In this document: positions 40,357 to 60,531 of the stretch, one piece after another | Numbering within the stretch: position 1 is the stretch's first letter | How the letters are laid out: the number at the start of each line of letters is the position of its first letter | DNA from: Escherichia phage Mangalyan | Sequence record: OR449013 | Reading direction: 5' to 3' (one strand) | DNA: 64,000 nucleotides | The notes under the pieces: generated by a model | Seen by the model: only the letters and a program-made list of their open reading frames with translations | Told to the model about the DNA's origin: nothing | Database searches by the model: none | Program-made: the position numbers and the translations under genes

Positions 40357-40385
40357 TTGACATAACCACACGGACGTGGTATTGT
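40357..40385 (+). promoter_or_regulatory. sigma70-like promoter (TTGACA-17-TATTGT)
   Basis: Upstream of the 40417 gene. Confidence 0.5.
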
Positions 40386-40416
40386 TACCTCATAAAATGT
40401 TTAGGAGGGTTTAACC

Positions 40417-40623
40417 ATGAAAGACTTTCTGTTGGCAATTTTGTTCATGGCAGCATGTCTGGCCTGTGGTGTCGTGTTTGCAGGTGAAACAGCGTATCTT
40501 GTCGATGTATATCGGGACAATGGTAAACGTATTTGCCTTTATGAGACAAGTCAAGGTGAGCTCTACGAGCTTGTGAAACAAGGCGAGGCTGGATCTTGTC
40601 CTCGCACCCATTTCTTTGAGTGA
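40417..40623 (+). CDS. small secreted/membrane protein next to endolysin (possible lysis accessory)
   Basis: 68-aa ORF with hydrophobic N-terminus FLLAILFMAACLACGVVFAG; AGGAGGG SD. Confidence 0.4.
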   Translation: MKDFLLAILFMAACLACGVVFAGETAYLVDVYRDNGKRICLYETSQGELYELVKQGEAGSCPRTHFFE

Positions 40624-40632
40624 GGAGAATAC

Positions 40633-41097
40633 GTGGAAGACGGACGTTTAATGAAGTCTGAACGCAGGCTTATTGTGCAACTGATCCCAGAAACAGCTTG
40701 GTATAATAACCTCCGAAACGCTGTGAAGAAGAGTGAGTGGGATAAGATCCGCAAGAAGTGCTATAGAGAAGCCAACTACACCTGTGAGGTGTGCGGCGGT
40801 AAAGGCAGCAAACACCCAGTGGAGTGTCATGAACTTTACACTTTCGAAGAGGGAGTGATCCGGCTTGTCGGACTGATAGCGTTGTGCCCAGATTGTCACA
40901 CATCGGTGCATCCTGGGTTAGCAAATATCCGTGGAAAGTATGCTCAGGCAGTTAGTCAGTTAGCTAAGGTGAATAAGATCACCAAGGGTATGGCAGAGGC
41001 CTATTACCGAGACTGCTTTGCAGAGTGGCGTGAGCTTAGTAAAGTTCCAGAATGGAAGACTGACTTTTCGTGGATAGAGGGTTACCTTGATGGCTAA
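40633..41097 (+). CDS. HNH-family nuclease-like protein
   Basis: CEVCGG...ECHE...CPDCH...H zinc/HNH-like arrangement. Confidence 0.4.
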   Translation: MEDGRLMKSERRLIVQLIPETAWYNNLRNAVKKSEWDKIRKKCYREANYTCEVCGGKGSKHPVECHELYTFEEGVIRLVGLIALCPDCHTSVHPGLANIRGKYAQAVSQLAKVNKITKGMAEAYYRDCFAEWRELSKVPEWKTDFSWIEGYLDG

Positions 41098-41380
41098 GAA
41101 ACCTGTAAAAGAGAAATTCGATAAGACAGCTTTTGTATTCGATACACCTCTGGACGATATCATCAGAGGTATGCAAGCCTTGTATCGGAAGGCTGAATCT
41201 GAGCAGTTGTCTGAATCAGAACTTTACTGGCTTGGTTGGTGGGAGTTAAACCTGCCTAAAGCTGAAAGTTCTTGTCTGAGAACTGTTAAAACGTGCGCCC
41301 AAGAAAACGCTGCACTTGGAATCTACCACAAAAGGAAAAGATCAACAAAAAGCTCTCCAAGAAAGACTAAAAAGTCTTGA
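41087..41380 (+). CDS. hypothetical protein
   Basis: 97-aa ORF with basic C-terminus. Confidence 0.35.
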   Translation: MMAKKPVKEKFDKTAFVFDTPLDDIIRGMQALYRKAESEQLSESELYWLGWWELNLPKAESSCLRTVKTCAQENAALGIYHKRKRSTKSSPRKTKKS

Positions 41381-41406
41381 CAAAAGTGTTATTAATCTGA
41401 TATTAT
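41377..41406 (+). promoter_or_regulatory. sigma70-like promoter (TTGACAAA-N-TATTATCGG family)
   Basis: TTGACA 41377-41382, TATTAT 41401-41406, upstream of the 41440 gene. Confidence 0.55.
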
Positions 41407-41439
41407 CGGTCAGATATCTATAAACTAGGAGAACTAGAT

Positions 41440-41748
41440 ATGCTTAAAATTTTTATTATTGAAGATAAAGATATTGTCCAGTTGTATGCAAACGAGAATC
41501 ATAAAGGTATGATTCTGAAGAAGGCAAGCAACCTTCATGAAAACACAATTCAACCTGGCGATGTAATTAAGATCTGTGGTTATATGATACCAGACTCCTT
41601 GATGAAAATAACCCACCACTGGGGGTCTAATCCGTTCCTTTTTGAAAAGTATTGGGATGTTGAGTCACTTATTGCAGAGAGTGATGATGCATTCCATTAC
41701 AGCATCCAACCATCTTGCAGAATAACTAACAGGAGGGTCTTTGAGTAG
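41440..41748 (+). CDS. hypothetical protein
   Basis: 102-aa ORF with AGGAG SD. Confidence 0.4.
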   Translation: MLKIFIIEDKDIVQLYANENHKGMILKKASNLHENTIQPGDVIKICGYMIPDSLMKITHHWGSNPFLFEKYWDVESLIAESDDAFHYSIQPSCRITNRRVFE

Positions 41749-42880
41749 AGAATATCCACTTATTGAGTCCATAGATTGTCTGGCTGATCTTCTTGAACCT
41801 GACGCTATAGTTTATTATGACTTCGATCAGGTTGCATATCAAGCTGCAGCAAGTTGTGAAAAAAGGACAATTGAGGTAACACACAAAGCCTCCGGACGTA
41901 AGAAGATGTTTAAAACACGAACAGAGTTCTGGGGGCGGCAGAAGAACACCGTTGGTGGTTGGTTAAAAGCTGAGAATACCAACCGTGAAGCTGCATGTAA
42001 AAAGGCTGGCAAGGAGTTTATTCCGTGGACACGAGAAGATTTCGATGTCTTGGATATCCAAACCCCAGATCCTGTAGAGAACTGCTTGCACACAATTAAG
42101 TGTAAAGCTAATGCAGTCCTTAATTATCTCGGTATTCCGGAAGATCGGTGCGTTGGGGTGCTGGGAGGCACAGGTAACTTCAGACTAGATCTCCCAATGC
42201 CGGAAAGATATAAAGCCAACCGTAACAATACTCTTCGACCACTGCTGCTTGGAGATGCAAGGCAGTATCTCCAAAAGCAGTATAATGCTCAAGTGATCAA
42301 CGGTATCGAGGCTGACGACTGGTTAGCTATCCAGCAATTTGAAGGTTGGAACCACTACCAAAAAACAGGTAAGTTCAACAAGTTTATTATCTCTATTGAT
42401 AAGGACCAAAGAACACTACCGGGGCTTGTGTTCGATCCCATGCGAAATGATAAGGGAGATTTTGTAAGGGAAACCCCTATGCTGATCGATAACGGTATGG
42501 GTAACATCTTCATGAAGCCTAATGGAGAGGTTGGTGGTTACGGAATGCTGTTCTTCGGATACCAAATGCTGTGTGGTGACTCTGCTGACAACATCAAGCC
42601 GTATCAAGGACTTATCGGTAAGGGTAAGTTCGGGGATGCCTCAGCATTCTACCTACTGTCTCAGTGCAGCACTCCAAAGGAGATGTGGGCGGCTATTATT
42701 GATCAGTACAAGAAGTGGTTCCCGAAAGGTGTTGTTAAGTATACTGACTTCAATGGTATTGATCGTAGAATTTCCGTAGGTCAGTGGATGAGTATAATTT
42801 TTGACTGTTTGTATATGAAGCGAACATTCAATGATCGAACAAAACTTGTTAACGTTCTTAGAAATGTTGGAGCAATTTGA
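41741..42880 (+). CDS. 5'-3' exonuclease / flap endonuclease-like protein
   Basis: GIEADDWLA matches the G-x-EADD motif of FEN/Pol I 5'-nucleases. Confidence 0.55.
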   Translation: MSREYPLIESIDCLADLLEPDAIVYYDFDQVAYQAAASCEKRTIEVTHKASGRKKMFKTRTEFWGRQKNTVGGWLKAENTNREAACKKAGKEFIPWTREDFDVLDIQTPDPVENCLHTIKCKANAVLNYLGIPEDRCVGVLGGTGNFRLDLPMPERYKANRNNTLRPLLLGDARQYLQKQYNAQVINGIEADDWLAIQQFEGWNHYQKTGKFNKFIISIDKDQRTLPGLVFDPMRNDKGDFVRETPMLIDNGMGNIFMKPNGEVGGYGMLFFGYQMLCGDSADNIKPYQGLIGKGKFGDASAFYLLSQCSTPKEMWAAIIDQYKKWFPKGVVKYTDFNGIDRRISVGQWMSIIFDCLYMKRTFNDRTKLVNVLRNVGAI

Positions 42881-43212
42881 TGACTAAAAATTCTGTAGAT
42901 AATGCAATTATGGAAGCTGTTTTTGAGGATGATCATACAACAGGGACCATTAAAACAAAAAATACATTTATTGTTGCCACAGGTATGTGGCGGTTGTATG
43001 AAGATGACACTATTTCATACATCCTGTACACAGATGATTACGCAGATGACCGTGTATGGTCTGCTGTTTTAAAAGAGGATTGTGAGTTGATTGAGGGCGA
43101 GCGGTTATGCATGTTCACCAGTGTGGAAACAGATGTTAAGCTTTGCTCTCTCGTCTTGTTCAAAGATAAGGCTTATGCTCCTGATGAAGGAGAGGAGGAT
43201 GAGGAAGCATGA
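42877..43212 (+). CDS. hypothetical acidic protein
   Basis: 111-aa ORF. Confidence 0.4.
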   Translation: MMTKNSVDNAIMEAVFEDDHTTGTIKTKNTFIVATGMWRLYEDDTISYILYTDDYADDRVWSAVLKEDCELIEGERLCMFTSVETDVKLCSLVLFKDKAYAPDEGEEDEEA

Positions 43213-43838
43213 GAGAGCGTCTATTATCCATAGACCAGTCGTTGACACACACAGCTTGCGTTGTATGGGACGATGGAAAGCCTGTTCATAAGGTTGTGTT
43301 ACGAACTCAAAGCTCATCTGCAAAAGAGAAGAAACCAGGGACGGTTTCTTTTGCAACAGCTGCTGAGCGTATTGACTGGATCTGCAAACAGGTCAGATAT
43401 TATATCCACACGCATCACGTTGACACCGTGGTTATGGAAGGGCTTTCCTTTGGATCACGCGGGGATGCCACACGTGAACTGGCTGGGTTGTTTTACGGTC
43501 TTGAAATTATGCTTTGGGATGCCTTAGCTGATTGTGAAAATGACGGCCTGTTTAAGGTCCACACAGTGACACCAACAACTGCCAAAAAGTTTGCTCGTAG
43601 TCATCTTCCTGAAGAACTTGCTTTTGAGGAGAAGAAAAAGCTTGACAAAAAGACAGGTAAAGAGCATACTGTGAAGAAACCTGTTACAATGGATAAAAAG
43701 TTGATGGTTAAGGCCTGCGAAGTATCTGAACCTGGGTTCCTAGACGGGATCAATTTGGTACAAGGTAAGGCCGATCTCGCAGATGCTTATTGGATAGGCA
43801 GGGCTCATCTGGAGGGATTATCGCAAAGCGTAAAATAA
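43209..43838 (+). CDS. RuvC-like Holliday junction resolvase
   Basis: N-terminal LSIDQSL...CVVWDDG and C-terminal ADLADAYWIG resemble RuvC-fold catalytic motifs. Confidence 0.55.
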   Translation: MRERLLSIDQSLTHTACVVWDDGKPVHKVVLRTQSSSAKEKKPGTVSFATAAERIDWICKQVRYYIHTHHVDTVVMEGLSFGSRGDATRELAGLFYGLEIMLWDALADCENDGLFKVHTVTPTTAKKFARSHLPEELAFEEKKKLDKKTGKEHTVKKPVTMDKKLMVKACEVSEPGFLDGINLVQGKADLADAYWIGRAHLEGLSQSVK

Positions 43839-44395
43839 GAAAGAAAGCTGTCAAAGCCCCAGTTCATAACGGGTGGTTAAAAGATTCTAAGGACATAGCC
43901 AACTTTCGAAAAGAATTGTCAGAGGAGCAGGATGGTCTTGATCCGATCTTGTGCGAGCCACTTCGTAAGCCTTGTTTAGATCATGATCATCTGACTGGTC
44001 GTTGCAGGGGTGTTTTGTCTCAATGCACTAATACCTTTGAGGGGTATGTGCTTAAATACTGGATGAAATACTGTAACGAGTATACAGATTGCAGTTTATC
44101 AGAGGCGTTGCGCCGGATGGCTGACTATTTGGAGAAAGACTACAGCGACTTCCCGCTCCACAAAAACTACAGAGATGATATGACAAAGTTCTTGAGGAGA
44201 TGCTCTAAAGCTACGATTATTGCACGAGCAGAATCAGATCTCAATCTTGTCATTAATCCAGAGTGCACCAAGCATGAGGCTATTGAGCTCTACATGCAGG
44301 AGTTTATAAAGAAAACTGAGGAGAGAGATTTCTATGGGGATGAAAAAGGTATTCAATCCTTGCGACTCAGTCCTGATCAGGATGAAATACCGTAA
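43790..44395 (+). CDS. endonuclease VII-like (HNH) protein
   Basis: CLDHDHLTGRCRGVLSQCTN matches the Endonuclease_7 zinc/HNH signature; start uncertain (overlaps upstream gene). Confidence 0.55.
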   Translation: MDRQGSSGGIIAKRKIRKKAVKAPVHNGWLKDSKDIANFRKELSEEQDGLDPILCEPLRKPCLDHDHLTGRCRGVLSQCTNTFEGYVLKYWMKYCNEYTDCSLSEALRRMADYLEKDYSDFPLHKNYRDDMTKFLRRCSKATIIARAESDLNLVINPECTKHEAIELYMQEFIKKTEERDFYGDEKGIQSLRLSPDQDEIP

Positions 44396-44555
44396 CTGGA
44401 AAGGTGTTGTTGCAGATCGCTGCGTTACTGAGCCTAATTTATGGTTTGGCTCTACAGAGTATCATAAAGAAGAGCAGTGGTTGATGCGTGCCTTCGATGT
44501 AGACAAGGGCGAATATCGTGACTTCGCTTTAAAAGACATTCTTCAGTTTTACTAA
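44334..44555 (+). CDS. hypothetical protein
   Basis: 73-aa ORF with GAGGAGAG SD. Confidence 0.35.
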   Translation: MGMKKVFNPCDSVLIRMKYRNWKGVVADRCVTEPNLWFGSTEYHKEEQWLMRAFDVDKGEYRDFALKDILQFY

Positions 44556-44567
44556 GGAATCTTAACG

Positions 44568-45551
44568 ATGATGACAAAGTTAACTCTTGAGCAAATTTTA
44601 ACACTAAAGCAACAAGGATACACTAATAGACAAATTGCTCGTGAATTTTTAGGCCGTGAGTCACGTGAGAGCTGGATCCGACTACAGCTTAAACGTGCAC
44701 AAGAGAATATGTCAGAGATTGTAGGAGAAGCAACGGAGCGCTTCCTTGAAGAGCACAAAGGTGCTAAAGTTTGGGTGTATGATACAGAGACATCCCCAAC
44801 AAACGGCTGGTTCTTTGGGCACTATAAGACCAACATTCAAACCTGTGGTATTGAAGTTATGCCCTATATGCTAACTTTCGCAGGTAAGTGGTTAGACAGC
44901 TCTAGTGTGGTTGACTGCGCTCTTCCAGATTACAAAATGTGGGATGAGGATATTCACAATGATCTCGAATTGATTCAGGATTTGTGGTATTATCTGGATA
45001 AATGCGATGTCGCAGTAGCCCACAATTCAGGTTTTGACTGCGGGTGGGCCAACCAACGATTTGCATTTCACGGGTTGCCTCCAACAAGCCCCTACAAAGA
45101 GGTTGACACCCTTAAAATGATCAAGAAGGCATTCCGTTTGAATGCAAACACTTTAGAGTATGCATGCAAATACTTCCAACTGGCCCGACAGAAACTGATT
45201 GACCACACATTTGAAATGTGGATCAAGTGTGTCCATGGCGATCTTGAGGCATTTAAACAGATGCGGGAGTATAATGTTGGTGATATCCTGTCTCTGGAAG
45301 GCTTGTATTTGCTGGCTCGCCCGTTTGCTAAGCAGCACCCAAACATGTCATTGTACTACCAGGACGAGGAGCCAAAGGTTCGTTGCCCACGCTGTGGTGG
45401 AGAACACCTTCACGAGGAAGAAGCTTTGGCGTATACTCAGCTGAGTGCATTTAAAACATACCGCTGCGAAGGTTGTGGATCTGTTGTTCGTGATCGTAAC
45501 AACATCCGTACCAGAGAAGAGATGAAAAACACCCTGATTCAGATAATCTAA
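44568..45551 (+). CDS. DnaQ-like 3'-5' exonuclease with N-terminal HTH and C-terminal zinc ribbon
   Basis: Exo motifs VYDTETS, HNSGFD, YNVGD; HTH-like TNRQIAREF; CPRCGG...CEGCG. Confidence 0.5.
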   Translation: MMTKLTLEQILTLKQQGYTNRQIAREFLGRESRESWIRLQLKRAQENMSEIVGEATERFLEEHKGAKVWVYDTETSPTNGWFFGHYKTNIQTCGIEVMPYMLTFAGKWLDSSSVVDCALPDYKMWDEDIHNDLELIQDLWYYLDKCDVAVAHNSGFDCGWANQRFAFHGLPPTSPYKEVDTLKMIKKAFRLNANTLEYACKYFQLARQKLIDHTFEMWIKCVHGDLEAFKQMREYNVGDILSLEGLYLLARPFAKQHPNMSLYYQDEEPKVRCPRCGGEHLHEEEALAYTQLSAFKTYRCEGCGSVVRDRNNIRTREEMKNTLIQII

Positions 45552-45558
45552 CAAGTAG

Positions 45559-45587
45559 AGGGAGGCTTGCGCCTCCCTTTTCCTTTT
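45559..45587 (+). terminator. rho-independent terminator
   Basis: AGGGAGGC-TTGC-GCCTCCCT hairpin followed by TTTTCCTTTT. Confidence 0.6.
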
Positions 45588-45596
45588 GGAGGCACT

Positions 45597-46415
45597 TTGA
45601 GCAAGAAAGAGTCTAACGACAAGTATTACACAAACCCAGGGTATGCAGAATATCTTGTTGGTAAAGTAAAAGATAAGTATGGGAATTGTGCATACGTTGA
45701 GCCTTCTGCTGGAAGAGGTTCTTTTTCAAAACTATTTTCAGAGATACTGTCGTACGATTTAGTACCAGATCCTGAATTTGAAGGACCAACACCGTGCATT
45801 CAGGCAAACTTCTTGGAGATGCACCCCAAGGCAGATGTCTTCATAGGTAACCCACCATTTGGCAAGAATTCATCTTTAGCTTGCAAATTCTTTAACCATT
45901 GTGCATCATTGCTAGAGCTTGGCGGGGCTATAGCCTTCATCTTGCCACGGACATTTGAAAAAATATTTTTTTCAAACAAACTGGACATGTCTATGCACCT
46001 TGTCTACAGCGAAAGGTGCCCTAAGAACTCGTTTTTACTTAATGGCAAACCTTATGACGTGCCATGTGTTTTCCAAATTTGGGAGAAAAAGGCGTGCAAT
46101 AGGGATCCTGTAGAGATTGGAGAGAATAAGTTATTTTCTTTTAGCACACCGGATGACTACGACTTCTGTGTAAGACGTGTTGGGTATAACGCTGGAAAAG
46201 TATTGGGTGATGATGATCCAAAATCTGAAGAATCTACATATTTCATAAAATCTTTAGTTGACGGTGTTGACAGAGTGTTTGCTGAATGCTATTCTTCTTT
46301 TCAAGAAGAAGCAGGTAAGACTGCTGGAATGAAGAGTATAGGCAAGAAAGAACTACAATACATTTTGGAGACCCGGTATGATCAAAAGCATAGACTTGAC
46401 CAAAGAACTTGCTGA
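45597..46415 (+). CDS. N6-adenine DNA methyltransferase
   Basis: Motif I EPSAGRGSF and motif IV NPPF; TTG start at 45597 after GGAGG preferred over track start inside the terminator hairpin. Confidence 0.6.
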   Translation: MSKKESNDKYYTNPGYAEYLVGKVKDKYGNCAYVEPSAGRGSFSKLFSEILSYDLVPDPEFEGPTPCIQANFLEMHPKADVFIGNPPFGKNSSLACKFFNHCASLLELGGAIAFILPRTFEKIFFSNKLDMSMHLVYSERCPKNSFLLNGKPYDVPCVFQIWEKKACNRDPVEIGENKLFSFSTPDDYDFCVRRVGYNAGKVLGDDDPKSEESTYFIKSLVDGVDRVFAECYSSFQEEAGKTAGMKSIGKKELQYILETRYDQKHRLDQRTC

Positions 46416-46836
46416 TGCAAAAGCTTTTGGTGAGACAGCGGTACAAAGAGGCCAGGCTATGGGACTGGCACTACCTTTCGTCTTAAAAGAGCACTTTACA
46501 GATTTTCAACTTATCAAGGGTGATAAGGGAATTCTTATCCTGGAGCATAAGTTGAGTAAGAAACGCTATAAAGTTGTTTTTAATTCTAAAGCTCCAACAA
46601 AACTGGGATTCAGAACTTACAATCTTAACCCATCCTACACTAAGGGTGTAGGAAGAGTAGAACAACAGCATTTCAGTGCTAGAGCTTCTTTAGCCCCCTT
46701 GATGCTAAATTTTTCAGGGGTGGCTTTAGGATACCTTGACAAGAAAAGAGTTCTTCATGTCCGTTTCACAGACTTTGTAACGCTTTTAGCTAACAATGAG
46801 GTAGATGAAAAGGGACGTGTAAAAACAAACTTCTAA
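46378..46836 (+). CDS. hypothetical protein
   Basis: 152-aa ORF. Confidence 0.4.
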   Translation: MIKSIDLTKELADAKAFGETAVQRGQAMGLALPFVLKEHFTDFQLIKGDKGILILEHKLSKKRYKVVFNSKAPTKLGFRTYNLNPSYTKGVGRVEQQHFSARASLAPLMLNFSGVALGYLDKKRVLHVRFTDFVTLLANNEVDEKGRVKTNF

Positions 46837-46851
46837 TAACGCATAGTATGA

Positions 46852-47055
46852 TTGGAGACCGCAATGACACTAAAGTTAACAGTTCCAGACAGCTTTTCAG
46901 AAAACTTTATCCCAGAAATGATGGATAAGATGCGATCATTGCTTGATCAGATTGAAGAGGCTGTTTGGGAAGACGATGCTGTAGTGGCTAACGAGCTGGT
47001 AGATAAGTGTAAAAGTATTATTGATGCAGTTGAAGAATACCACGGAGGTTTTTGA
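46852..47055 (+). CDS. hypothetical acidic protein
   Basis: 67-aa ORF. Confidence 0.35.
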   Translation: METAMTLKLTVPDSFSENFIPEMMDKMRSLLDQIEEAVWEDDAVVANELVDKCKSIIDAVEEYHGGF

Positions 47056-47669: not shown

Positions 47670-48256
47670 TCGGAATTGATGTAGATTTGACACTGGTAGA
47701 TTCAGGAACAGCATGGTGGGAGTGGTTGGAGCGTTTGTATGGTCCAGCCAGTAAGACAGTCGCTAAACCTTCTAATGGACTGATGTATTACGATCTGTCA
47801 AAGTATTGGCCTGATCGCCCCAAAGAAAACATCATAGGGCCTTTTGATTTCTGGAGTGACCCATTCCTCTACGACTTTCTTAAGCCTGAAGAGGGGGCTA
47901 TTGAGGTTATGAAAGATTTGGTGGCTCGTGGTCACAAGCTTGCATTTATCTCGGTATGCAAGAAAGGTCACCTTGCATCTAAATCAAGGTTCTTAAAGCG
48001 TTGGACCAGTGATTTTATGGATCTGGACGATCACACCCAGGGTCACGGCTTCTACGCCACACATTTCAAAGGAAATGTGGCTGTAGATGTTATAATTGAC
48101 GACAGGCATGAATACCTTAACCAATTCGCTTCACGACCTGAAGTTATTAAAATCCTAAAAGATACGCCTTATGAGCAATTCGAGGAGTTAAAGGTCAGTG
48201 TTGACTATACCGCCAATAGCTGGTATAAAATAGGAAAGTTTTTAGAAGGTATTTGA
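47663..48256 (+). CDS. HAD-superfamily phosphatase (putative nucleotidase)
   Basis: Motif I IGIDVDLTLVD (DxDxT). Confidence 0.45.
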   Translation: MLIGIDVDLTLVDSGTAWWEWLERLYGPASKTVAKPSNGLMYYDLSKYWPDRPKENIIGPFDFWSDPFLYDFLKPEEGAIEVMKDLVARGHKLAFISVCKKGHLASKSRFLKRWTSDFMDLDDHTQGHGFYATHFKGNVAVDVIIDDRHEYLNQFASRPEVIKILKDTPYEQFEELKVSVDYTANSWYKIGKFLEGI

Positions 48257-48257
48257 A

Positions 48258-48458
48258 ATGGGCAGATGTTCTAAAGGTGGCGATCCTGTAGTCAGATACG
48301 GTGACTGGCTGGAGGTATATGATCTGGGAGGTAAGCTAGTGTATGCCTCCAGGATCACCCAAGACATGTGCTCTGATATGTTTAACAGATACCTTGCATT
48401 TAAGGCCAACATAAACCCAGACGAAATTTCCAAAATTAAAACAAGGAGAGCTAAATAA
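48258..48458 (+). CDS. hypothetical protein
   Basis: 66-aa ORF. Confidence 0.35.
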   Translation: MGRCSKGGDPVVRYGDWLEVYDLGGKLVYASRITQDMCSDMFNRYLAFKANINPDEISKIKTRRAK

Positions 48459-49441: not shown

Positions 49442-49470
49442 TCCTATCACAGCGATAGGTAACTTTTGTG

Positions 49471-49499
49471 TTGACTAATAGTATCAGATAATCTATAAT
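49471..49499 (+). promoter_or_regulatory. sigma70-like promoter (TTGACT-17-TATAAT)
   Basis: Consensus-like elements upstream of the 49528 gene. Confidence 0.55.
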
Positions 49500-49527
49500 A
49501 ATGGCTCACTTTGTTGGTGAGCCAGAA

Positions 49528-53682: not shown

Positions 53683-53685
53683 TAC

Positions 53686-53964
53686 ATGAGCTGTGAAAAA
53701 TCTTTTTTCTTTATTATTTACGGTAAAGATAACTGCCCACATTGTGTAAGAGCAAAAGAATTTGCAGTCAGTAAGGGTCTGCCTTTTGTATATAAGACAC
53801 TTGGCGAGGGTTACACAAAAGAAGAGCTTATTGAGAAGTGCAGTCCAATCGTACCCAGAACGTTGCCGCAGATCTTCTTAGAAAGTAATCTTGAAAGTGT
53901 CCATATAGGCGGTGCCGACGATTTCATCTCTTTTGTTAAGAATGGTTTTGGAGAGAAAAAGTGA
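53686..53964 (+). CDS. glutaredoxin (NrdH/Grx-like)
   Basis: CPHC redox motif near N-terminus; 92 aa; between nrdB and nrdD. Confidence 0.7.
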   Translation: MSCEKSFFFIIYGKDNCPHCVRAKEFAVSKGLPFVYKTLGEGYTKEELIEKCSPIVPRTLPQIFLESNLESVHIGGADDFISFVKNGFGEKK

Positions 53965-54821
53965 AAGTTGTAAAACGGGACGGTAGAGAAGAGGTCTATA
54001 ACGGAATTAAGGTGATCAAGGCGGCAGAGTCCGCCTTACTTGAGTCTGGACATACTGAAGAAGAAGCTTACCGGATCGCCTGCGCGGTTAATGAAGTTGT
54101 TGCTAACACTCTACCAACCGACCAGTGCACGATCTCTGTAAAAAATATCCATATCCTTGTTGAAGACGCTCTTATGGATATGGGTTTAAAATGTGCAGCC
54201 AGAGAATACATCCAGTATAGGCAGACAAGAGATAATAATAGAGAGGCAGGTGGAAAACTGCTTGCAGATATTAGTGGCTTCTTGGATCGCACTTGTGATG
54301 AATTTACAAAAGAAAACGCAAATAAGCCTACCAATCATGTACACACTCATCGTGACCTGCTTGCAGGCATCCTTAGCAAACACCTTGCATCAACACAGAT
54401 CCTGCCAGACCGTGTCTCAGAAGAGCACAATAGAGGCTTCATCCATGTGCATGATCTTGACTACTTGATCAGTCCGTTAACAAACTGTTGTTTGGTAAAT
54501 TATCCAGATATGTTGGAAAACGGATTCAACATTGGTAACGCCCATGTCAGTAAGCCGAAGTCAATAGGGGTTGCAACAACAATCCTTAGCCAAATCTCTA
54601 GTGCAGTAGCTAGTGCTCAATATGGTGGTCAGACTATGAGCCATATTGATCATTATCTGGCACAGTATGCTGAAGCGACCTATGAGAAGAACCTTAAATT
54701 TTGCCAGGAACATTGGTTGCCAGATGCTGAGACTGTTGCAATGCAAATGACAGATAAAGACGTATTTGACAGCATGCAGACTTTGCTCTATCAAATCAAT
54801 ACGTTAACTTCTGTCAACGGT
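53961..54821 (+). CDS. nrdD: anaerobic ribonucleoside-triphosphate reductase, exon 1
   Basis: ATP-cone VVKRDGREEVYNGIKV; ORF ends with TAA at the first intron codon. Confidence 0.8.
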
Positions 54822-54975
54822 TAACAAACTGGCCGTTGTAAAACTCTCCTAACCTCATAAGAGGGGTCGGTAAATCCGGCTAACGGGGAACGCTAAGGCG
54901 AAAGCTATGCCAATCCCGTGACTAGTTCTTACAGGAGTTGGAACGGTTGTAACGACTAACGAAAGGCAGAGATGC

Positions 54976-55004
54976 TTGACAAACATTTCTGAACCAAGTA
55001 GTGT
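54976..55004 (+). promoter_or_regulatory. promoter-like element inside intron upstream of homing endonuclease ORF (TTGACA-17-TAGTGT)
   Basis: TTGACAAA motif as in other phage promoters here; weak -10. Confidence 0.35.
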
Positions 55005-55045
55005 AGGGGTTAGTTGAAATACTAACTTCGAAATGGAGAGGCTCT

Positions 55046-55579
55046 ATGAAAAAGATCATTCTTAATGGTGAAGAATCAAACTATGTGATTGATGAGGTTG
55101 GAAACGTATACGGAAAACGTGGAATGCTACACCCAATATTGTGGGGAGGTTATGGAAAAGGTAAAAAGCATGTTAAACGCCGTTATATGTACTCTTTCAA
55201 CCACAAAGGTAAAAAGATTCGAATCCAAACCTCAAGGATTGTTGCCTTGTATTGTTTGCCGGATGTCCCAGAAGACCCTGAAAACTGGGAAGTGAATCAT
55301 AAAGATGGCAATACATTGAATGATCATCCGTCTAACCTAGAGTGGGTTTTGCCGGAAGATAATAAGAGACATGCTTTCCGAACAGGACTTTGTCCAGGTA
55401 AGTGCTATAGGAAAGTGCAGGCATACAAAGGGAAAACCTTGGTGGGTGAATATCCTTCACTCTATGCCTGTGCAAAAGCCTTAAATTTGAACGTAGGTAA
55501 CGTTCATAGGGCTATCGAAGGAAATGCCGAAGGTAAGCATCTCACAATAAAGGGTTATTATCTTATTGAAGTAGAGTAA
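55046..55579 (+). CDS. HNH homing endonuclease (intron-encoded)
   Basis: VNHKDGNTLNDHPSNLEWV...EDNKRH HNH motif; GGAGAGG SD; stop abuts the intron S element. Confidence 0.7.
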   Translation: MKKIILNGEESNYVIDEVGNVYGKRGMLHPILWGGYGKGKKHVKRRYMYSFNHKGKKIRIQTSRIVALYCLPDVPEDPENWEVNHKDGNTLNDHPSNLEWVLPEDNKRHAFRTGLCPGKCYRKVQAYKGKTLVGEYPSLYACAKALNLNVGNVHRAIEGNAEGKHLTIKGYYLIEVE

Positions 55580-55639
55580 GAGATAGTCTGGCCCTGTGGA
55601 AACACAGGGAGGAGACAGCAGACTCCATTCATCACATTG

Positions 55640-56881
55640 AGTTTAGGACTGGATACCTCGGTCTTTGGTAGAATGATTACCAAAAACTACTTGAAAGTCC
55701 ACAAAATGGGTCTTGGTGAAGAACGTATTACACCTGTATTCCCTAAAGTGCTGTTCTTCCTGGAAGAGGGTGTTAACATGAACCCTGGGGATCCTAACTA
55801 TGATTTGAAACGATTAGCTCTGGAATGCTGTGCAGAACGTATCTACCCTGACTTCGTATCTGTACCACTAAATAGAAAAGTGACAGGCTCGACAGATGGC
55901 AAAGTAACGAGCATGGGTTGCCGGAGTTTTCTTAGCAAATATAATGACTTGGAAACAGGTGAGGAAAAATACCTTGGCAGATTCAACTTGGGTGTTGTTA
56001 GCCTTAACCTGCCAATGATTGCGGCAAAAGCTAAGACGGAAGGTGTTGATTTCTTTGCAGTTCTTGACGAATACTTGGATCTTGCATACGAGGCTCACCT
56101 TGTAAGGGTTAACCGTCTAAAAGGAACAAAGGCAGGGCAGAACCCCATCATGTGGTGTGAAGGCGCTCTTGCTCGCCTGGATCCTGAAGAAAGTATTGAT
56201 AAACTCTTCTATGACGGGTACGCTTCCATCAGCATTGGGTATATTGGTGTGTATGAAACCTGTCAGATTTTGGGCAGAGAGGGTGACAAGGCTTTAGCTC
56301 TTGGAATCCTTCAGCACATGAGAGATGCTTGTGAGCGATACAAGAAGGAAAGTAGACTAGCGTTTAGCTTGTACGGCACCCCTTCTGAGAGTCTATGCTA
56401 TAAAGCTGCAACCTGTCTGGATCGTGAATATCCTGAAGTGTTGAAGCACGAGCATGAATATCTCACCAACAGTTTCCATCAGCCAGTATGGATCAATAGC
56501 TCTCCTTTTGATAAGTGGGCGTATGAGGAAGGTTTTGCTATGATCTCCTCTGGTGGCAACATCGGATATGTAGAGACACCGAATCTGAAAAACAACTTAG
56601 ATGCTTTAGAGGCTCTTGTTGACTTCGGGTATAAACACATTATGTATTTTGGTATTAACCAACCTGTGGATAAATGTCTCAAGTGTGGTTTCTCTGGGGA
56701 GTTCAGTGCAACAGCTAAAGGCTTTGTATGCCCAGAGTGTGGAAACCATGAAGAGGGAACGATCAGTGTGATCAGACGTGTGTCTGGATACCTTTCCAGT
56801 CCTAACTCCCGTCCTTATAATAAAGGTAAGCAAGCGGAAGTTATCGAGCGAGTTAAGCACTATGGAAGTTGTAGTTGCTGA
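55640..56881 (+). CDS. nrdD: anaerobic ribonucleoside-triphosphate reductase, exon 2
   Basis: Glycyl-radical motif RVSGYL and zinc ribbon CLKCGF...CPECG; predicted 3' splice site after G at 55639 (P10 AGUUU / AAACU). Confidence 0.8.
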   Translation, partial: SLGLDTSVFGRMITKNYLKVHKMGLGEERITPVFPKVLFFLEEGVNMNPGDPNYDLKRLALECCAERIYPDFVSVPLNRKVTGSTDGKVTSMGCRSFLSKYNDLETGEEKYLGRFNLGVVSLNLPMIAAKAKTEGVDFFAVLDEYLDLAYEAHLVRVNRLKGTKAGQNPIMWCEGALARLDPEESIDKLFYDGYASISIGYIGVYETCQILGREGDKALALGILQHMRDACERYKKESRLAFSLYGTPSESLCYKAATCLDREYPEVLKHEHEYLTNSFHQPVWINSSPFDKWAYEEGFAMISSGGNIGYVETPNLKNNLDALEALVDFGYKHIMYFGINQPVDKCLKCGFSGEFSATAKGFVCPECGNHEEGTISVIRRVSGYLSSPNSRPYNKGKQAEVIERVKHYGSCSC

Positions 56882-56945
56882 TACTTGACAAAAGCCACAA
56901 GGATGTGGCACCATACAGATGTTTAGGGAAGTTAGGAAACAAGAG

Positions 56946-58079
56946 ATGGCTAAATTATCGACAGAAGAGTTTATAGAGAAGGCGAAAATCATTCACGGTT
57001 ATAAATACAATTACAAGAAAACAGTGTACGTGGATTGCTATGCGAAGGTTTGCATTACCTGTCAAATCCATGGAGATTTTATGCAAGCACCTTGTCAACA
57101 CTTGCAAGGTCGTGGTTGTCCTTTTTGTGCAAAACTTTCTCGTGCTACAAAGTGTAATAAAGGTCTTAAATTTGTAGAAAGAGCCAAAGAAATCCATGGA
57201 GATAACTATGACTACTCTCTCGTATACTACAAGACTTGCAAAGATAAAGTAGAAATAATCTGCAATACTTGTGGAAATCACTTTACACAGACACCTGACA
57301 ATCATATAAATTTGAAAAGAGGTTGTCCAGTTTGCAAGGGGTCAAGAATCTCACAAAGCAAAACCAAACCTCATGAAAAGTGGGTTGAGGACATAGAGAA
57401 GAAAAATACTTATATTGAAATATTAGAAGAGATCACCACTGGGTGGAATAAAGTATTATGTCGTTGCAAAGTTTGCAACCACGAATGGTCAGCTACGCCT
57501 GTTATCCTTAAGCGTGGTCACGGCTGCCCCGGATGTGGCGGATCTATGAAAAAGACCACTGAAGAGTTTATCCAGGACGCTGTGGCTATCCACGGGAACA
57601 AGTATGATTACTCTAAAGTGAGGTATGTGAATTCACACATCAAGGTTACAATTGTTTGCACAGATCATGGAGATTTCTGTCAATCCCCTACCCAGCATTT
57701 AGGAGGGGGAGGGTGTCCTAAATGCACCAAAAGAGGATTTTTATCCCACGATTGTGGTAAACTTTACATTATGGTTGATGATCCGGAAGTGCCTACATTT
57801 ATGAAAATAGGTGTCAGTCATAATGAAAGTAAGCGAAGAGACCAGATACTTAAAAGTGCACAAAGATCTGGAGCTGGTATCTGCGATCTGTACATAGTGA
57901 AAACGTTGGAAGGATCAACTGAAAACATGCTGGCTGTAGAAAAATCTATGCACAAAGCCTTCAGTAAATATAAAATAAACTTCCCTGTAAAATTTGATGG
58001 TAGCACCGAATTCTTCTACTACAGGCCTGAGGTGTTCAGCACAGTGGAAGCAGCGTACAAAGAGATCTGCGGTAAATGA
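56946..58079 (+). CDS. zinc-ribbon repeat protein with C-terminal T5orf172/GIY-YIG-like domain (putative freestanding homing endonuclease)
   Basis: Three repeats of HG-x-Y-x-Y...C-x-HG-F...GCP-x-C and C-terminal KLYIMVDDP...MKIGVS; located between nrdD and nrdG. Confidence 0.4.
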   Translation: MAKLSTEEFIEKAKIIHGYKYNYKKTVYVDCYAKVCITCQIHGDFMQAPCQHLQGRGCPFCAKLSRATKCNKGLKFVERAKEIHGDNYDYSLVYYKTCKDKVEIICNTCGNHFTQTPDNHINLKRGCPVCKGSRISQSKTKPHEKWVEDIEKKNTYIEILEEITTGWNKVLCRCKVCNHEWSATPVILKRGHGCPGCGGSMKKTTEEFIQDAVAIHGNKYDYSKVRYVNSHIKVTIVCTDHGDFCQSPTQHLGGGGCPKCTKRGFLSHDCGKLYIMVDDPEVPTFMKIGVSHNESKRRDQILKSAQRSGAGICDLYIVKTLEGSTENMLAVEKSMHKAFSKYKINFPVKFDGSTEFFYYRPEVFSTVEAAYKEICGK

Positions 58080-58263: not shown

Positions 58264-58368
58264 ATGCGGAAATCTATCAAGAAAATCAAGATAAAATTGT
58301 TAGCACTGAAGCGTAAGTATAAAAAGTTATACGGCTTCATCAAATGGACTTTTATAAGTTTATCTTGA
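58264..58368 (+). CDS. 34-aa basic micro-ORF (MRKSIKKIKIKLLALKRKYKKLYGFIKWTFISLS)
   Basis: ATG with AAGGGG SD; may be non-coding. Confidence 0.25.
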   Translation: MRKSIKKIKIKLLALKRKYKKLYGFIKWTFISLS

Positions 58369-58399
58369 ATAGAAGCACACCACAGAAGAGAGGTTCCTT

Positions 58400-59106: not shown

Positions 59107-59109
59107 CTG

Positions 59110-59139
59110 TTGACAAAGCTTTGTTTAGATAGGTATAAT
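59110..59139 (+). promoter_or_regulatory. strong sigma70-like promoter (TTGACA-18-TATAAT)
   Basis: TTGACAAAGC...TATAATTATCG, immediately upstream of the 59171 micro-ORF. Confidence 0.6.
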
Positions 59140-59170
59140 TATCGTAAAATGAAAGCAGAGGAGGTGCCAA

Positions 59171-59284
59171 ATGGCTAAAAAAGCCTTGAAGAAGGCGTAC
59201 AAAAAAGAAATTGCGCTTGAGCTCAAGAAAAAACACAAGCGTGAAAAGAAACATCATGAGGATGAAGAGGAGCTGCAACAGTGA
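59171..59284 (+). CDS. 37-aa highly basic micro-protein (MAKKALKKAYKKEIALELKKKHKREKKHHEDEEELQQ)
   Basis: ATG with AGAGGAGG SD directly downstream of the strongest promoter; stop overlaps next gene GTG start. Confidence 0.35.
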   Translation: MAKKALKKAYKKEIALELKKKHKREKKHHEDEEELQQ

Positions 59285-59631
59285 CACAAGAACGTATCGA
59301 TTTGGCTAATAAGTTTGTAGATCTCATTTTGCCACGGTTAGTTACTCAACATGCAGACGCTATTTCTACTAATCTTGATGGCTTACGCCTAATGCTGAAT
59401 CGCACAGATGACCCTCGCATTCGGGCTGATTTAGAAGCCTCTGCCAACAAACTGGAAAAGTTCTTGCAAGTAGATACGCAAGAAGCCTTACACAAGATTA
59501 TGGTGGAAGGTTTCTCTAAAGAATTTACCATTAAAGAGCTTAAGGAGCTGATCCACCAAGAAGAGATGAATATCCGAGTTCAGGCTGTTGCAAGCAGCAT
59601 GGAAGCGGCTATTGAAAAACTGTTGCAGTAA
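59281..59631 (+). CDS. hypothetical protein
   Basis: 116-aa ORF, GTG start. Confidence 0.4.
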   Translation: MTQERIDLANKFVDLILPRLVTQHADAISTNLDGLRLMLNRTDDPRIRADLEASANKLEKFLQVDTQEALHKIMVEGFSKEFTIKELKELIHQEEMNIRVQAVASSMEAAIEKLLQ

Positions 59632-59669
59632 AAGTACTTGGCACATCTCAATCTGAAAGGAGTCCCAAC

Positions 59670-60458
59670 ATGGGTCGAGCTAAAGAAACAAAACGCATGC
59701 GTGATGAAGCTAGAGAGGCTCGCAAATCTGATCGCCTGCGCAAGGCTGCTGAGAAATTTGCTGACGAAAGAGAGCACACCGCTCCAGCTCTCCGACCAAT
59801 GAATAAGAAGCAGCAAAAGTATCTTGATTATCTAGGGTCACGTAAGATTATCATTGTAAACGGTGTGTTTGGATCCGGTAAGACATTCATGGCATCTGCA
59901 TATGCAGGTGATCTTCTGCGTAAGAACGAGATTGATAAGATCATTGTTGCACGTCCTTACGTTCAGACAGGAAAGACTTCAGGATTTAAACCTGGAAATG
60001 CAATGCAGAAACTGTGGCCCTATCTTCGAAGCATGATGGACACGATTTGTCGTCGTGTTGGCAAAGGTGCTTTTGCCGCAATGCTGGGAGACGGTCAGAA
60101 CAGTCGTATCGAGATTTGTGAAGTTGAAAGCATTCGTGGTCGTAGTTTCGATGAGCGATGCTTTGTCCTGATTGACGAGGCACAGCAAACTAACCCTGAA
60201 GAAATGTTGTCAATTATCACAAGGATCTCTGATCAGGCCACCCTTGTAATCATGGGCGATAATAGCCAACGTGACATCCCTGGTAAATCTGGACTTGCAT
60301 GGGTGACGGATTTCTTTACTCGTCATCCAGATCCTGAGGTTGGAATGATCAGCTTTGATAGTCCAGACGATGTCGTTCGTTCCGGATTGGGTCGTCAGAT
60401 TGCACTCAATCTTATTGAGGATCGTGCAAATCATATTTGGACCCCTGTTTCCGAGTAA
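59670..60458 (+). CDS. phoH: PhoH-like ATPase
   Basis: Walker A GVFGSGKT, Walker B LIDEAQ; 262 aa. Confidence 0.8.
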   Translation: MGRAKETKRMRDEAREARKSDRLRKAAEKFADEREHTAPALRPMNKKQQKYLDYLGSRKIIIVNGVFGSGKTFMASAYAGDLLRKNEIDKIIVARPYVQTGKTSGFKPGNAMQKLWPYLRSMMDTICRRVGKGAFAAMLGDGQNSRIEICEVESIRGRSFDERCFVLIDEAQQTNPEEMLSIITRISDQATLVIMGDNSQRDIPGKSGLAWVTDFFTRHPDPEVGMISFDSPDDVVRSGLGRQIALNLIEDRANHIWTPVSE

Positions 60459-60502
60459 CACAGAAGGGTGGTTATTCCACCCTTAGATATCTAAAACAGT
60501 TG

Positions 60503-60531
60503 TTGACAAACAGGTAAGCTTTAGATATTAT
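60503..60531 (+). promoter_or_regulatory. sigma70-like promoter (TTGACA-17-TATTAT)
   Basis: TTGACAAAC...TATTATTATCGG upstream of the 60557 gene. Confidence 0.6.

What the first reader, a model, noticed from the sequence alone, without database searches (positions are those of the whole stretch)
40357..60531. Family of near-consensus promoters with a shared extended motif
At least five plus-strand promoters (40357, 41377, 49471, 59110, 60503) have TTGACA/TTGACT followed by A-rich sequence, a 17-18-nt spacer and TATAAT/TATTAT; three of them continue with TTATCGG after the -10 element. The conserved extension suggests a phage-specific promoter class, possibly recognised by a phage factor together with host sigma70.
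Basis: seen in the sequence. Interest (0 to 1): 0.4.

Follow-up and report, generated by a model that had tools for sequence, protein, structure and literature searches.

The report
Known sigma-70 promoters of rV5-like phage
The five sites are ordinary host-type (sigma-70) promoters of an rV5-like E. coli phage that were already listed for phage rV5 in 2013, and the extra "TTATCGG" motif is not a conserved part of them.

Summary
The window is a Vequintavirus (rV5-like E. coli myophage; 99.3% identical to phage PDX over window 40000-50000). All five sites exist at the stated coordinates. They are far more than chance: five matches of at least 11/12 on the coding strand against 0.52 expected, all in the 5.5% of non-coding sequence, each 25-40 nt upstream of a Shine-Dalgarno sequence and ATG. 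They match promoters P090, P093, P107, P118 and P121 predicted for rV5 by Kropinski et al. 2013, Table S4.

The proposed extension fails every test:
- TTATCGG is exact at only two sites; the third has TTATCGT.
- It sits in different registers relative to the -10 element.
- It occurs in 2 of 27 promoters genome-wide.
- It lies in the most variable stretch of the orthologous promoters (40% variable columns, against 0/30 in the -35 hexamers). At P60503, 11 genomes show six different states.

The real extra features are conventional RNA-polymerase contacts: TG before the -35 (TGTTGAC), an A-rich upstream tract, and an extended -10 (TGn). The TGTTGAC core and upstream A-tract match the consensus published for the sister genus Certrevirus. 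Three of the five promoters keep their position in other genera of the subfamily.

Verdict: a real but ordinary and already described promoter family. I found no evidence for a phage-specific class or a phage co-factor. No transcription start mapping was found.

The parts
40357..40385 (+). Promoter matching rV5 P090: -35 TTGACA (40357-40362), 17-nt spacer, TGn, -10 TATTGT (40380-40385). It lies 3 nt after the endolysin stop and 31 nt before the ATG at 40417 (68-aa protein, phrog_4641).
   Evidence: Both hexamers are invariant in 9 genomes, even where the upstream gene differs. rV5 itself has TATTTT.
41377..41406 (+). Promoter matching rV5 P093: -35 TTGACA (its TGA is the stop codon of ORF 41087-41380), 18-nt spacer, TGn, -10 TATTAT. 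The ATG at 41440 is 33 nt downstream. TTATCGG at 41403-41409 overlaps the -10.
   Evidence: CGG changes to CGT or CAG in 4 of 8 relatives, while the hexamers are invariant.
49471..49499 (+). Promoter matching rV5 P107: TTGACT-17-TATAAT. It sits between thyX (stop at 49441) and the gene that starts at 49540.
   Evidence: Hexamers are invariant in 9 genomes. A TTGACA-17-TATCTT promoter sits at the same place in 8 loci of other genera.
59110..59139 (+). Promoter matching rV5 P118: TTGACA-18-TATAAT (12/12). It lies after nrdG (stop at 59106) and 31 nt before the ATG at 59171 (37-aa ORF, phrog_7670). It is followed by TATCGT.
   Evidence: 8 of 18 spacer columns vary and the 2 nt after the -10 are hypervariable, yet the hexamers are invariant. 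Orthologous TTGACA-17/18-TATGAT, TAAGAT or TATCAT promoters occur in 9 loci of other genera.
60503..60531 (+). Promoter matching rV5 P121: TTGACA-17-TATTAT, followed by TATCGG. It lies after phoH (stop at 60458) and 25 nt before the ATG at 60557 (103-aa protein, phrog_5456).
   Evidence: In 11 genomes TTGACA and TATTAT are kept, while the next 6 nt take six states.
39544..39571 (+). Additional candidate of the same family, inside the 3' end of the DNA ligase gene: TGTTGACA-16-TGt-TAAAAT (11/12). It lies 312 nt upstream of the endolysin gene.
   Evidence: It is not in the rV5 list, and function is not tested.
48201..48229 (+). Additional family member matching rV5 P105 apart from two spacer substitutions: TGTTGACT-17-(TGg)TATAAA. 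It is intragenic, just upstream of ORF 48258-48458.
46267..46295 (+). Candidate intragenic family member: TGTTGACA-17-(TGc)TATTCT.
60777..60806 (+). Candidate intragenic family member: TGTTGACA-18-(TGg)TAGACT, upstream of the ClpP-like gene (60929).
49443..49459 (+). Terminator-like hairpin plus T-run between the thyX stop and the -35 of the 49471 promoter.
   Evidence: Fold energy is -8.8 kcal/mol, z -2.6.
49502..49524 (+). Stem-loop that starts 3 nt after the -10 of the 49471 promoter, so at about the 5' end of the predicted transcript.
   Evidence: Fold energy is -15.2 kcal/mol, z -3.4. It is unchanged in 9 Vequintavirus genomes. Other genera have different GC-rich hairpins at the same place.
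60464..60483 (+). Terminator-like hairpin after phoH, 20 nt upstream of the -35 of the 60503 promoter.
   Evidence: Fold energy is -13.7 kcal/mol, z -3.0. The EdH4 record lists a 'terminator' feature under a match to window 60470-60541.

Best explanation
The five sites are conventional sigma-70-type promoters, read by unmodified E. coli RNA polymerase holoenzyme. They belong to a genome-wide set of about 30 such promoters in rV5-like phages.

In this window they divide the 29-kb rightward block of nucleotide and DNA metabolism genes into successive operons. That block holds ligase, exonucleases, thyX, nrdAB, nrdDG and phoH. Two of the promoters sit directly after a terminator-like hairpin, so they would restart transcription.

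Sigma region 4 reads TTGACA and region 2 reads TATAAT. The two sites with weaker -10 hexamers carry TGn (region 3 contact). Several sites have an A-rich tract at about -40 to -45 (alpha-CTD contact). These assignments follow from established knowledge of sigma-70 promoters.

Shown here: the sequence features, statistical enrichment, position relative to genes, selective constraint on the hexamers, and positional conservation across genera. Inferred: that transcription starts about 7 nt after each -10, that host holoenzyme alone suffices, and that expression is early or middle.

The shared (A)TTATCG(G/T) is best explained as a coincidence of this one genome. It may be helped by sequence relatedness or short-patch recombination between the 59110 and 60503 promoter regions. 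It is not a functional element.
For: - Matches of 10-12 out of 12 with 17-18 nt spacers.
- 5 hits of at least 11/12 against 0.52 expected on the coding strand, none on the other strand.
- All five lie in the 5.5% intergenic sequence, 25-40 nt from a GGAG-type Shine-Dalgarno sequence and ATG.
- In 9 Vequintavirus genomes the -35 hexamers show 0/30 variable columns. The -10 hexamers show 3/30, all from one 3-nt deletion that regenerates TATTAT. This compares with 23% in spacers, 27% upstream and 40% in the 7 nt after the -10. Fisher test for hexamers against the rest: p=3e-4.
- Hexamers are kept in 11 genomes at P60503, even where the upstream gene is replaced.
- Orthologous promoters occur at three of the five positions in other genera, with nothing but the hexamers alignable.
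- The 27-promoter profile from PDX shows G at -36 (14/27, p=6e-4), T at -37, A-rich -40 to -45 and the TGn G (17/27, p=5e-6). It shows nothing at +1 to +5 after the -10.
- TGTTGAC occurs 33 times against 11.9 expected.
- The same five sites are published as rV5 P090, P093, P107, P118 and P121. The matching consensus AAAA-N3-4-TGTTGAC-N17-19-TATAAT is published for Certrevirus.
- The rV5 authors report no homologs of T4 gp33, gp45 or gp55, the T4 late-transcription proteins (PMC3606486).
Against: - No transcription start site, RNA-seq or in vitro transcription data for any Vequintavirus turned up in the searchable literature. Promoter activity and timing are therefore inferred.
- ATTATCG shared by three of five sites is nominally unusual under a simple null: P(at least 3 sharing a 7-mer)=0.0066, before correcting for the choice of region.
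- The 59110 and 60503 regions resemble each other more than shuffles do: p=0.002, uncorrected for 10 pairs. Some non-random cause for the resemblance cannot be excluded.
- rV5 encodes an Srd-like putative anti-sigma protein, so some modulation of sigma-70 use during infection is possible.
Confidence: 0.85

Rival explanations
1. One reading: the sites form a phage-specific promoter class defined by a conserved extension (TTATCGG after the -10, A-rich after the -35), recognised by a phage-encoded factor together with host sigma-70.
For: Three of the five sites share ATTATCG near the -10, with null P=0.0066. Two of them also have the window's only two copies of the palindrome AGATATCT next to them. 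rV5-like phages encode an Srd-like putative anti-sigma protein.
Against: - The motif is in different registers at different sites.
- It occurs in 2 of 27 family members.
- TTATCGG is at background frequency in the window.
- It lies in the most variable promoter segment among relatives.
- rV5 itself has TTATCGT at P093 and PDX has TGCCGT at P118.
- Of the 9 genomes compared at all five sites, only this window has all three copies intact.
- AGATATCT is broken in 4 of 8 relatives at P41377 and in 6 of 8 at P60503.
- It is absent from orthologous promoters of other genera.
- The A after the -35 is weak genome-wide.
Confidence: 0.04
2. The family-wide TGTTGAC extension (TG at -37/-36), conserved across Vequintavirinae genera, marks promoters that need or are tuned by a phage factor. 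It would not then be a plain host-polymerase preference.
For: G at -36 occurs in 14/27 promoters and T at -37 in 14/27. TGTTGAC occurs 33 times against 11.9 expected. The same TGTTGAC core is in the Certrevirus consensus. G at -36 is kept in nearly all orthologous promoters of other genera.
Against: The sites already match the host consensus at 10-12 of 12 positions. From memory, not tested here, GTGTTGAC also precedes the -35 of lambda PL and PR, which host polymerase uses alone. No candidate factor was identified.
Confidence: 0.06
3. The sites are chance consensus matches without promoter function.
For: The tool's loose scan (at least 9/12) finds no excess over shuffles: 48 against 41.4, and 28 against 30.1. 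There is no experimental evidence.
Against: There is a strong excess at 10/12 or better and 11/12 or better, on the coding strand only. Location is intergenic. The hexamers are invariant amid variable flanks. Position is conserved in other genera.
Confidence: 0.03

Closest known systems
Predicted sigma-70-like promoters of phage rV5 (Kropinski et al. 2013, Virol J 10:76, Additional file 4 Table S4): P090, P093, P107, P118, P121
   Same: These are the same five promoters in a sister strain. The -35 hexamers are identical, the -10 hexamers identical or nearly so, and the flanking genes are the same. That paper lists 33 such promoters across the genome. It concludes they resemble host consensus promoters, 11 of them with extended -10 regions.
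   Different: There are strain-level substitutions. P090 has -10 TATTTT in rV5 and TATTGT here. P093 is followed by CGT in rV5 and CGG here. The P118 spacer differs, and rV5's closest relatives (rV5_ev156, PDX) have TGCCGT after the -10 where the window has TATCGT. None of the rV5 promoters was verified experimentally either.
Certrevirus putative early sigma-70-like promoter, consensus AAAA(N3-4)TGTTGAC(N17-19)TATAAT (Buttimer et al. 2020, PMC7344957)
   Same: Both come from the same phage subfamily (Vequintavirinae). Both show TG before TTGAC, an upstream A-tract and a consensus -10. In both, the promoters are concentrated in early and DNA-metabolism regions.
   Different: It is a different genus with different hosts (Pectobacterium, Cronobacter). 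The sequences outside the core are not alignable, and orthology of individual promoters was not examined for Certrevirus.
Strong early promoters of classical coliphages (lambda PL/PR, T7 A1-A3, T5 N25), used by unmodified host sigma-70 holoenzyme
   Same: Both have near-consensus -35 and -10 hexamers with a spacer of about 17 nt, often with A-rich upstream tracts. They drive phage genes without a phage RNA polymerase. This comparison rests on established knowledge recalled from memory, not tested here.
   Different: Those promoters are experimentally characterised. There is no sequence homology to the sites here, and the timing and strength of the present sites are unknown.
T4 middle (MotA/AsiA) and late (gp55/gp33/gp45) promoters; rV5 putative late motif TGGTAAAATA
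   Same: An rV5-type late-like motif is enriched in this window (17 against 6.2 expected), with 10 of the 17 copies on the - strand of the structural-gene block.
   Different: The five sites keep a canonical TTGACA at -35. T4 middle promoters replace the -35 with a MotA box, and late promoters lack a -35 (from established knowledge of T4 promoters). rV5 has no gp33, gp45 or gp55 homologs.

Membership tests
Bacterial sigma-70 (housekeeping) -35/-10 promoter | -35 hexamer close to TTGACA | tested here: met
   TTGACA at four sites and TTGACT at one.
Bacterial sigma-70 (housekeeping) -35/-10 promoter | -10 hexamer close to TATAAT, with A at position 2 and T at position 6 | tested here: met
   TATAAT at two sites, TATTAT at two and TATTGT at one. 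The sites at 40357 and 41377 also carry TGn.
Bacterial sigma-70 (housekeeping) -35/-10 promoter | Spacer of 17 +/- 1 nt | tested here: met
   Spacers are 17, 18, 17, 18 and 17 nt.
Bacterial sigma-70 (housekeeping) -35/-10 promoter | Located upstream of, and co-oriented with, a gene, in non-coding DNA, and more often than chance | tested here: met
   All five lie in intergenic gaps (5.5% of the block), 25-40 nt from a Shine-Dalgarno sequence and ATG. There are 5 hits against 0.52 expected on the coding strand and 0 on the other strand.
Bacterial sigma-70 (housekeeping) -35/-10 promoter | Selective constraint on the hexamers relative to spacer and flanks | tested here: met
   Variable columns: -35 0/30, -10 3/30 (all from a deletion that regenerates TATTAT), spacers 20/87, upstream 27/100. 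The hexamers are kept in 11 genomes and at orthologous sites in other genera.
Bacterial sigma-70 (housekeeping) -35/-10 promoter | Transcription initiates 6-8 nt downstream of the -10 with sigma-70 holoenzyme | not testable with these tools
   No TSS or in vitro data were found in the literature searches.
Published rV5 / Vequintavirus promoter set (Kropinski 2013, Table S4) | Sequence and position correspond to listed promoters | tested here: met
   The sites at 40357, 41377, 49471, 59110 and 60503 correspond to P090, P093, P107, P118 and P121, with identical -35 hexamers and flanks.
   TTATCG occurs within 20 nt of the -10 start in 2 of 27 PDX promoters. There is no information at positions +1 to +5 after the -10.
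   The motif starts 20, 23 and 22 nt after the -35, and 2, 5 and 5 nt from the start of the -10.
   14/35 columns vary, the most variable class. There are six states in 11 genomes at P60503. The motif is absent in other genera.
T4-type middle promoter (MotA/AsiA sigma appropriation) | A MotA box centred at about -30 replaces the -35 hexamer | tested here: not met
   All five sites have a canonical TTGACA/T at -35. The definition of the MotA box comes from established knowledge.
T4-type late promoter / rV5 putative late motif (TGGTAAAATA, no -35) | An extended TATAAATA-like -10 without a -35 element | tested here: not met
   The five sites have -35 hexamers, and none of the 17 TGGTAAAATA-like matches coincides with them.

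The most novel reading that the evidence does not exclude
The subfamily-wide extended -35 (TGTTGAC), or in this lineage the ATTATCG(G/T) and AGATATCT sequences around P41377, P59110 and P60503, could be a contact for a phage-encoded regulator that tunes otherwise host-type promoters during infection. That would make them a factor-modulated sigma-70 promoter class.
Probability: 0.05. Interest if true: 0.4.

Novelty: already known. Interest (0 to 1): 0.1.

Why it matters
It matters little beyond annotation. The result confirms by comparative evidence that the rV5-type promoters predicted in 2013 are under selection. It also shows that three of the five are positionally conserved across Vequintavirinae genera. 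This supports the view that these phages run their nucleotide and DNA metabolism genes from host-type promoters. These strong, compact promoters could serve as parts for engineering the therapeutic or biocontrol phages of this group. The proposed new motif should not be carried forward.

Tried and rejected
- TTATCGG as a word: 7 in the window against 4.4 expected, not enriched.
- A-rich tract after the -35: only the first spacer position is weakly A-biased (12/27, p=0.05).
- AGATATCT palindrome. Its only two copies in the window flank P41377 and P60503, which looked like a possible operator. It is broken by substitutions in 4 of 8 relatives at P41377 and 6 of 8 at P60503, so I rejected it.
- RNA structure formed by the TTATCGG-containing leaders: none. 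The folds give z-scores of +0.29, +0.36 and -0.34.
- Paralogy among the promoters. Only P59110 against P60503 (p=0.002) and P40357 against P59110 (p=0.0055) stand out of 10 pairs, uncorrected. The window and FFH2 version of the P59110 spacer looks like a short patch resembling P60503. S127 has TATCGT without that patch, so the history is not simple. I did not pursue this.
- Literature searches for transcriptomics or TSS mapping of Vequintavirus found nothing relevant. One search was badly specified and returned only generic papers.
- IMG/VR held no close Vequintavirus loci, only 10 loci of other genera. Close relatives were therefore taken from GenBank phage records.
- In one search the locus L008 gave an out-of-range coordinate and a meaningless long printout for one gene. 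I ignored that row.
Full report
**What the window is.** Window 40000-50000 is 99.3% identical to Escherichia phage PDX. It is 95-99% identical to more than 100 other Vequintavirus (rV5-like) myophages. GC skew and ORF orientation show a leftward block (about 1-34 kb: structural genes, tRNAs) and a rightward block (35-64 kb). Transferred annotation from FFH2 and WalterGehring identifies the rightward block as nucleotide and DNA metabolism genes. It holds ligase, endolysin, exonucleases, thyX, nrdAB, grx, nrdDG, phoH and a ClpP-like gene.

| Site | -35 | Spacer (nt) | -10 | Match | TGn |
|---|---|---|---|---|---|
| 40357 | TTGACA | 17 | TATTGT | 10/12 | yes |
| 41377 | TTGACA | 18 | TATTAT | 11/12 | yes |
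| 49471 | TTGACT | 17 | TATAAT | 11/12 | no |
| 59110 | TTGACA | 18 | TATAAT | 12/12 | no |
| 60503 | TTGACA | 17 | TATTAT | 11/12 | no |

The description of the extension is loose. TTATCGG is exact only at 41377 and 60503, and 59110 has TTATCGT. At 41377 the motif overlaps the -10 hexamer, starting 2 nt into it. At the other two it starts 5 nt into it.

**More than chance.** The tool's permissive scan (at least 9/12) shows no excess over shuffles. High-scoring matches do.
- In 35000-64000 the + strand has 5 hits of at least 11/12 against 0.52 expected, and 0 of 200 dinucleotide-preserving shuffles reach 5.
- It has 18 hits of at least 10/12 against 6.9 expected.
- The opposite strand has 0 and 8.
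- Intergenic DNA is only 5.5% of this block, yet all five sites lie in gaps.
- Each -10 ends 25-40 nt before an ATG that is preceded by a GGAG-type Shine-Dalgarno sequence.
- Two sites follow terminator-like hairpins, at 49443-49459 and 60464-60483. The phage EdH4 record lists a 'terminator' feature under a match to window 60470-60541, which overlaps the second hairpin.

**Already described.** Additional file 4 (Table S4) of Kropinski et al. 2013 (PMC3606486) lists 33 putative sigma-70-like promoters of rV5. P090, P093, P107, P118 and P121 match the five sites, with identical -35 hexamers and flanks. The authors noted strong similarity to E. coli consensus promoters, 11 of them with extended -10 regions. 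They suggested that T4-like modification of host polymerase might not occur. They also described a separate putative late motif, TggTAaAAtA. For the sister genus Certrevirus a consensus AAAA(N3-4)TGTTGAC(N17-19)TATAAT has been published (PMC7344957).

**Is the extension real?** Five tests were made.
- *Word frequency.* TTATCGG occurs 7 times in the window against 4.4 expected, and 17 of 100 shuffles reach 7.
- *Family-wide profile.* I collected 27 intergenic, co-oriented promoters from the complete PDX genome. Positions +1 to +5 after the -10 carry no information. TTATCG occurs near the -10 in only 2 of the 27, the P093 and P121 homologues.
- *Conservation in close relatives.* I aligned the five regions from 9 Vequintavirus genomes: the window, PDX, FFH2, WalterGehring, FV3, JEP1, HMD-6, S127 and rV5_ev156. 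The variable columns are tabulated below.
- *Substitutions at each site.* At P41377, CGG becomes CGT or CAG in 4 of 8 relatives. At P59110, TATCGT becomes TGCCGT, TAGCGT or TGTCGT in 6 of 8. At P60503, 11 genomes show six states (TATCGG, TATTGG, TACCGG, TACTGG, CATCGG, and a deletion giving CGA), while TTGACA and TATTAT are kept.
- *Other genera.* In loci with NrdA 74-83% identical, the orthologous promoters carry no such motif.

| Promoter segment | Variable columns |
|---|---|
| -35 hexamers | 0/30 |
| -10 hexamers | 3/30 (all from one 3-nt deletion in S127 that regenerates TATTAT) |
| Spacers | 20/87 |
| 20 nt upstream | 27/100 |
| 7 nt after the -10 | 14/35 |

The 7 nt after the -10, where the extension lies, are the most variable class. 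Of the 9 genomes compared at all five sites, only the window has all three ATTATCG copies intact.

The resemblance in this one genome is not trivial. Three of the five sites share the 7-mer ATTATCG, with a simple-null P of 0.0066 before look-elsewhere correction. The 59110 and 60503 regions are more alike than shuffles (p=0.002, one of 10 pairs). The likeliest reading is coincidence. Relatedness or short-patch exchange between two neighbouring promoter regions may have contributed. It is not selection for a binding site.

**What the real shared features are.** The 27-promoter profile shows:
- G at -36 (14/27, p=6e-4) and T at -37 (14/27), that is TGTTGAC;
- an A-rich tract at about -40 to -45;
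- the G of an extended -10 TGn (17/27, p=5e-6).

TGTTGAC itself occurs 33 times in the window against 11.9 expected, and 0 of 100 shuffles reach 33. In the rightward block many of these sites are followed at the correct distance by a TGn-TAnnnT element: 39544, 48201 (matching rV5 P105), 46267, 60777, 36828 and 35853. The family in this block is therefore larger than five and includes intragenic members. The TGTTGAC core and upstream A-tract match the published Certrevirus consensus. The A-tract (UP-element-like) and TGn are recognised contact points of host RNA polymerase; that statement rests on established knowledge.

**Deep conservation.** In the other genera, the orthologues of three genes keep promoters at the same position, although nothing else in the intergenic regions aligns:
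- the gene at 40417 keeps TTGACA-17/18-TATCAT;
- the gene at 49540 keeps TTGACA-17-TATCTT;
- the gene at 59171 keeps TTGACA-17/18-TATGAT, TAAGAT or TATCAT.

The gene at 60557 has no such promoter there, and the gene at 41440 has no orthologue. In FV3 and rV5_ev156 at P40357, and in navn and YP-6 at P60503, homology to the window begins only a few bases upstream of the -35. The upstream gene is different in those phages. The promoter therefore travels with the downstream gene module.

**Mechanism.** The best-supported model is recognition by unmodified host sigma-70 holoenzyme. The promoters would re-initiate transcription at intervals along the metabolic gene block. Sequence, enrichment, position and selective constraint are shown here. 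Start sites, timing and sufficiency of host polymerase are inferred. No TSS mapping or transcriptome for a Vequintavirus was found. The first genes downstream of the five promoters belong to PHROGs families. Four have no known function and one is labelled 'transposase'.

**Rivals.**
- A phage-specific class defined by TTATCGG is contradicted by register, family-wide absence and free evolution of the motif.
- A factor that reads the TGTTGAC extension cannot be excluded. Nothing requires it, and no candidate factor was identified.
- Chance occurrence is excluded by strand-specific enrichment, intergenic location and hexamer conservation.

**Verdict.** This is a real promoter family, correctly spotted, but it is ordinary and already published for rV5. 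The claimed conserved extension and the phage-factor interpretation are not supported. Novelty: already known. Interest: 0.1.

Noticed in passing
window 28430-28708 (- strand); ORFs 27258-28346 and 28696-29124: Rfam finds a full-length group I intron (RF00028, 83.8 bits, E 7e-20). It lies between two - strand ORFs at the position where FFH2 has an uninterrupted terminase large-subunit gene. This phage therefore appears to carry an intron in terL.
   Followed up: partly
window 53961-58079: nrdD is split (53961-54824 and 55637-56881) by an HNH endonuclease ORF (55046-55579). WalterGehring annotates this as a joined CDS with a homing endonuclease inside, but Rfam reports no group I intron here at the gathering threshold. 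A further 386-aa ORF (56919-58079) is absent from FFH2 and rV5, and WalterGehring calls the ORF at the corresponding position (331 aa as annotated there) a 'putative homing endonuclease'. Homing-endonuclease content varies a good deal between relatives (JEP1 has two inserts in nrdD; S127 and rV5_ev156 have none).
   Followed up: partly
window 49502-49524: A 9-bp stem-loop (-15.2 kcal/mol, z -3.4) starts 3 nt after the -10 of the 49471 promoter, at the predicted 5' end of the mRNA. It is unchanged in 9 Vequintavirus genomes. Other genera have different GC-rich hairpins at the same place between promoter and Shine-Dalgarno sequence. It may be a 5' stabiliser or a regulatory element.
   Followed up: partly
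window 49501 vs 49540: FFH2, FV3, HMD-6 and WalterGehring start the gene after thyX at the ATG at 49501, which lies 2 nt after the -10 and inside the hairpin. JEP1, S127 and rV5_ev156 use the ATG at 49540, which has a GGAG upstream. The 153-aa version covers PHROG 5557 end to end, so 49540 is the likelier start.
   Followed up: partly
window, mainly - strand 299-28784: The rV5 'late' motif TGGTAAAATA (one mismatch allowed) occurs 17 times against 6.2 expected, and 0 of 100 shuffles reach 17. Ten of the 17 copies are on the - strand in the structural-gene block. This class lacks a -35 element and, unlike the five sites, is the more plausible candidate for factor-dependent transcription.
   Followed up: partly
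window 41412-41419 and 60485-60492: The 8-bp palindrome AGATATCT occurs only twice in the window, both times beside the two TTATCGG-carrying promoters. One copy is downstream of the -10 and the other is upstream of the -35. In most relatives it is broken by substitutions, so it is probably not an operator.
   Followed up: yes
window 40354-40357 and about 60495; loci L016, L020, L021, L022: Mosaic breakpoints lie a few bases upstream of the -35 hexamers. FV3 and rV5_ev156 have a different upstream gene before P40357 (annotated as a putative HNH endonuclease in FV3). navn and YP-6 have an unrelated gene before P60503. Promoters seem to mark module boundaries.
   Followed up: partly
window 41377-41382: The stop codon (TGA) of ORF 41087-41380 lies inside the -35 hexamer TTGACA of the 41377 promoter.
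   Followed up: no
window 59116-59145 vs 60516-60540: The window and FFH2 version of the P59110 spacer and downstream sequence (TTTAGATAGGTATAATTATCGT) differs from PDX and rV5_ev156 (TTGAGTTGGTTATAATTGCCGT) by six clustered substitutions and a 2-nt indel. By my reading of the sequences, most of the window-specific bases match P60503. This suggests a short-patch exchange between the two promoters.
   Followed up: partly
loci L005, L006, L012 (upstream of the g40417 orthologue) and L011 (upstream of the g59171 orthologue): In these other-genus phages the -10 hexamer lies between imperfect inverted repeats, for example CCCGGTGAT...ATCATCGGG and CCCAGCCGA...TCGGGCTGGG. These could be operators, or hairpins in the DNA or RNA.
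   Followed up: no
GenBank records MG0656xx: About 20 records named 'Campylobacter phage' with host C. jejuni are 97-98.5% identical to E. coli Vequintaviruses over this region. The host attribution of those records looks doubtful.
   Followed up: no
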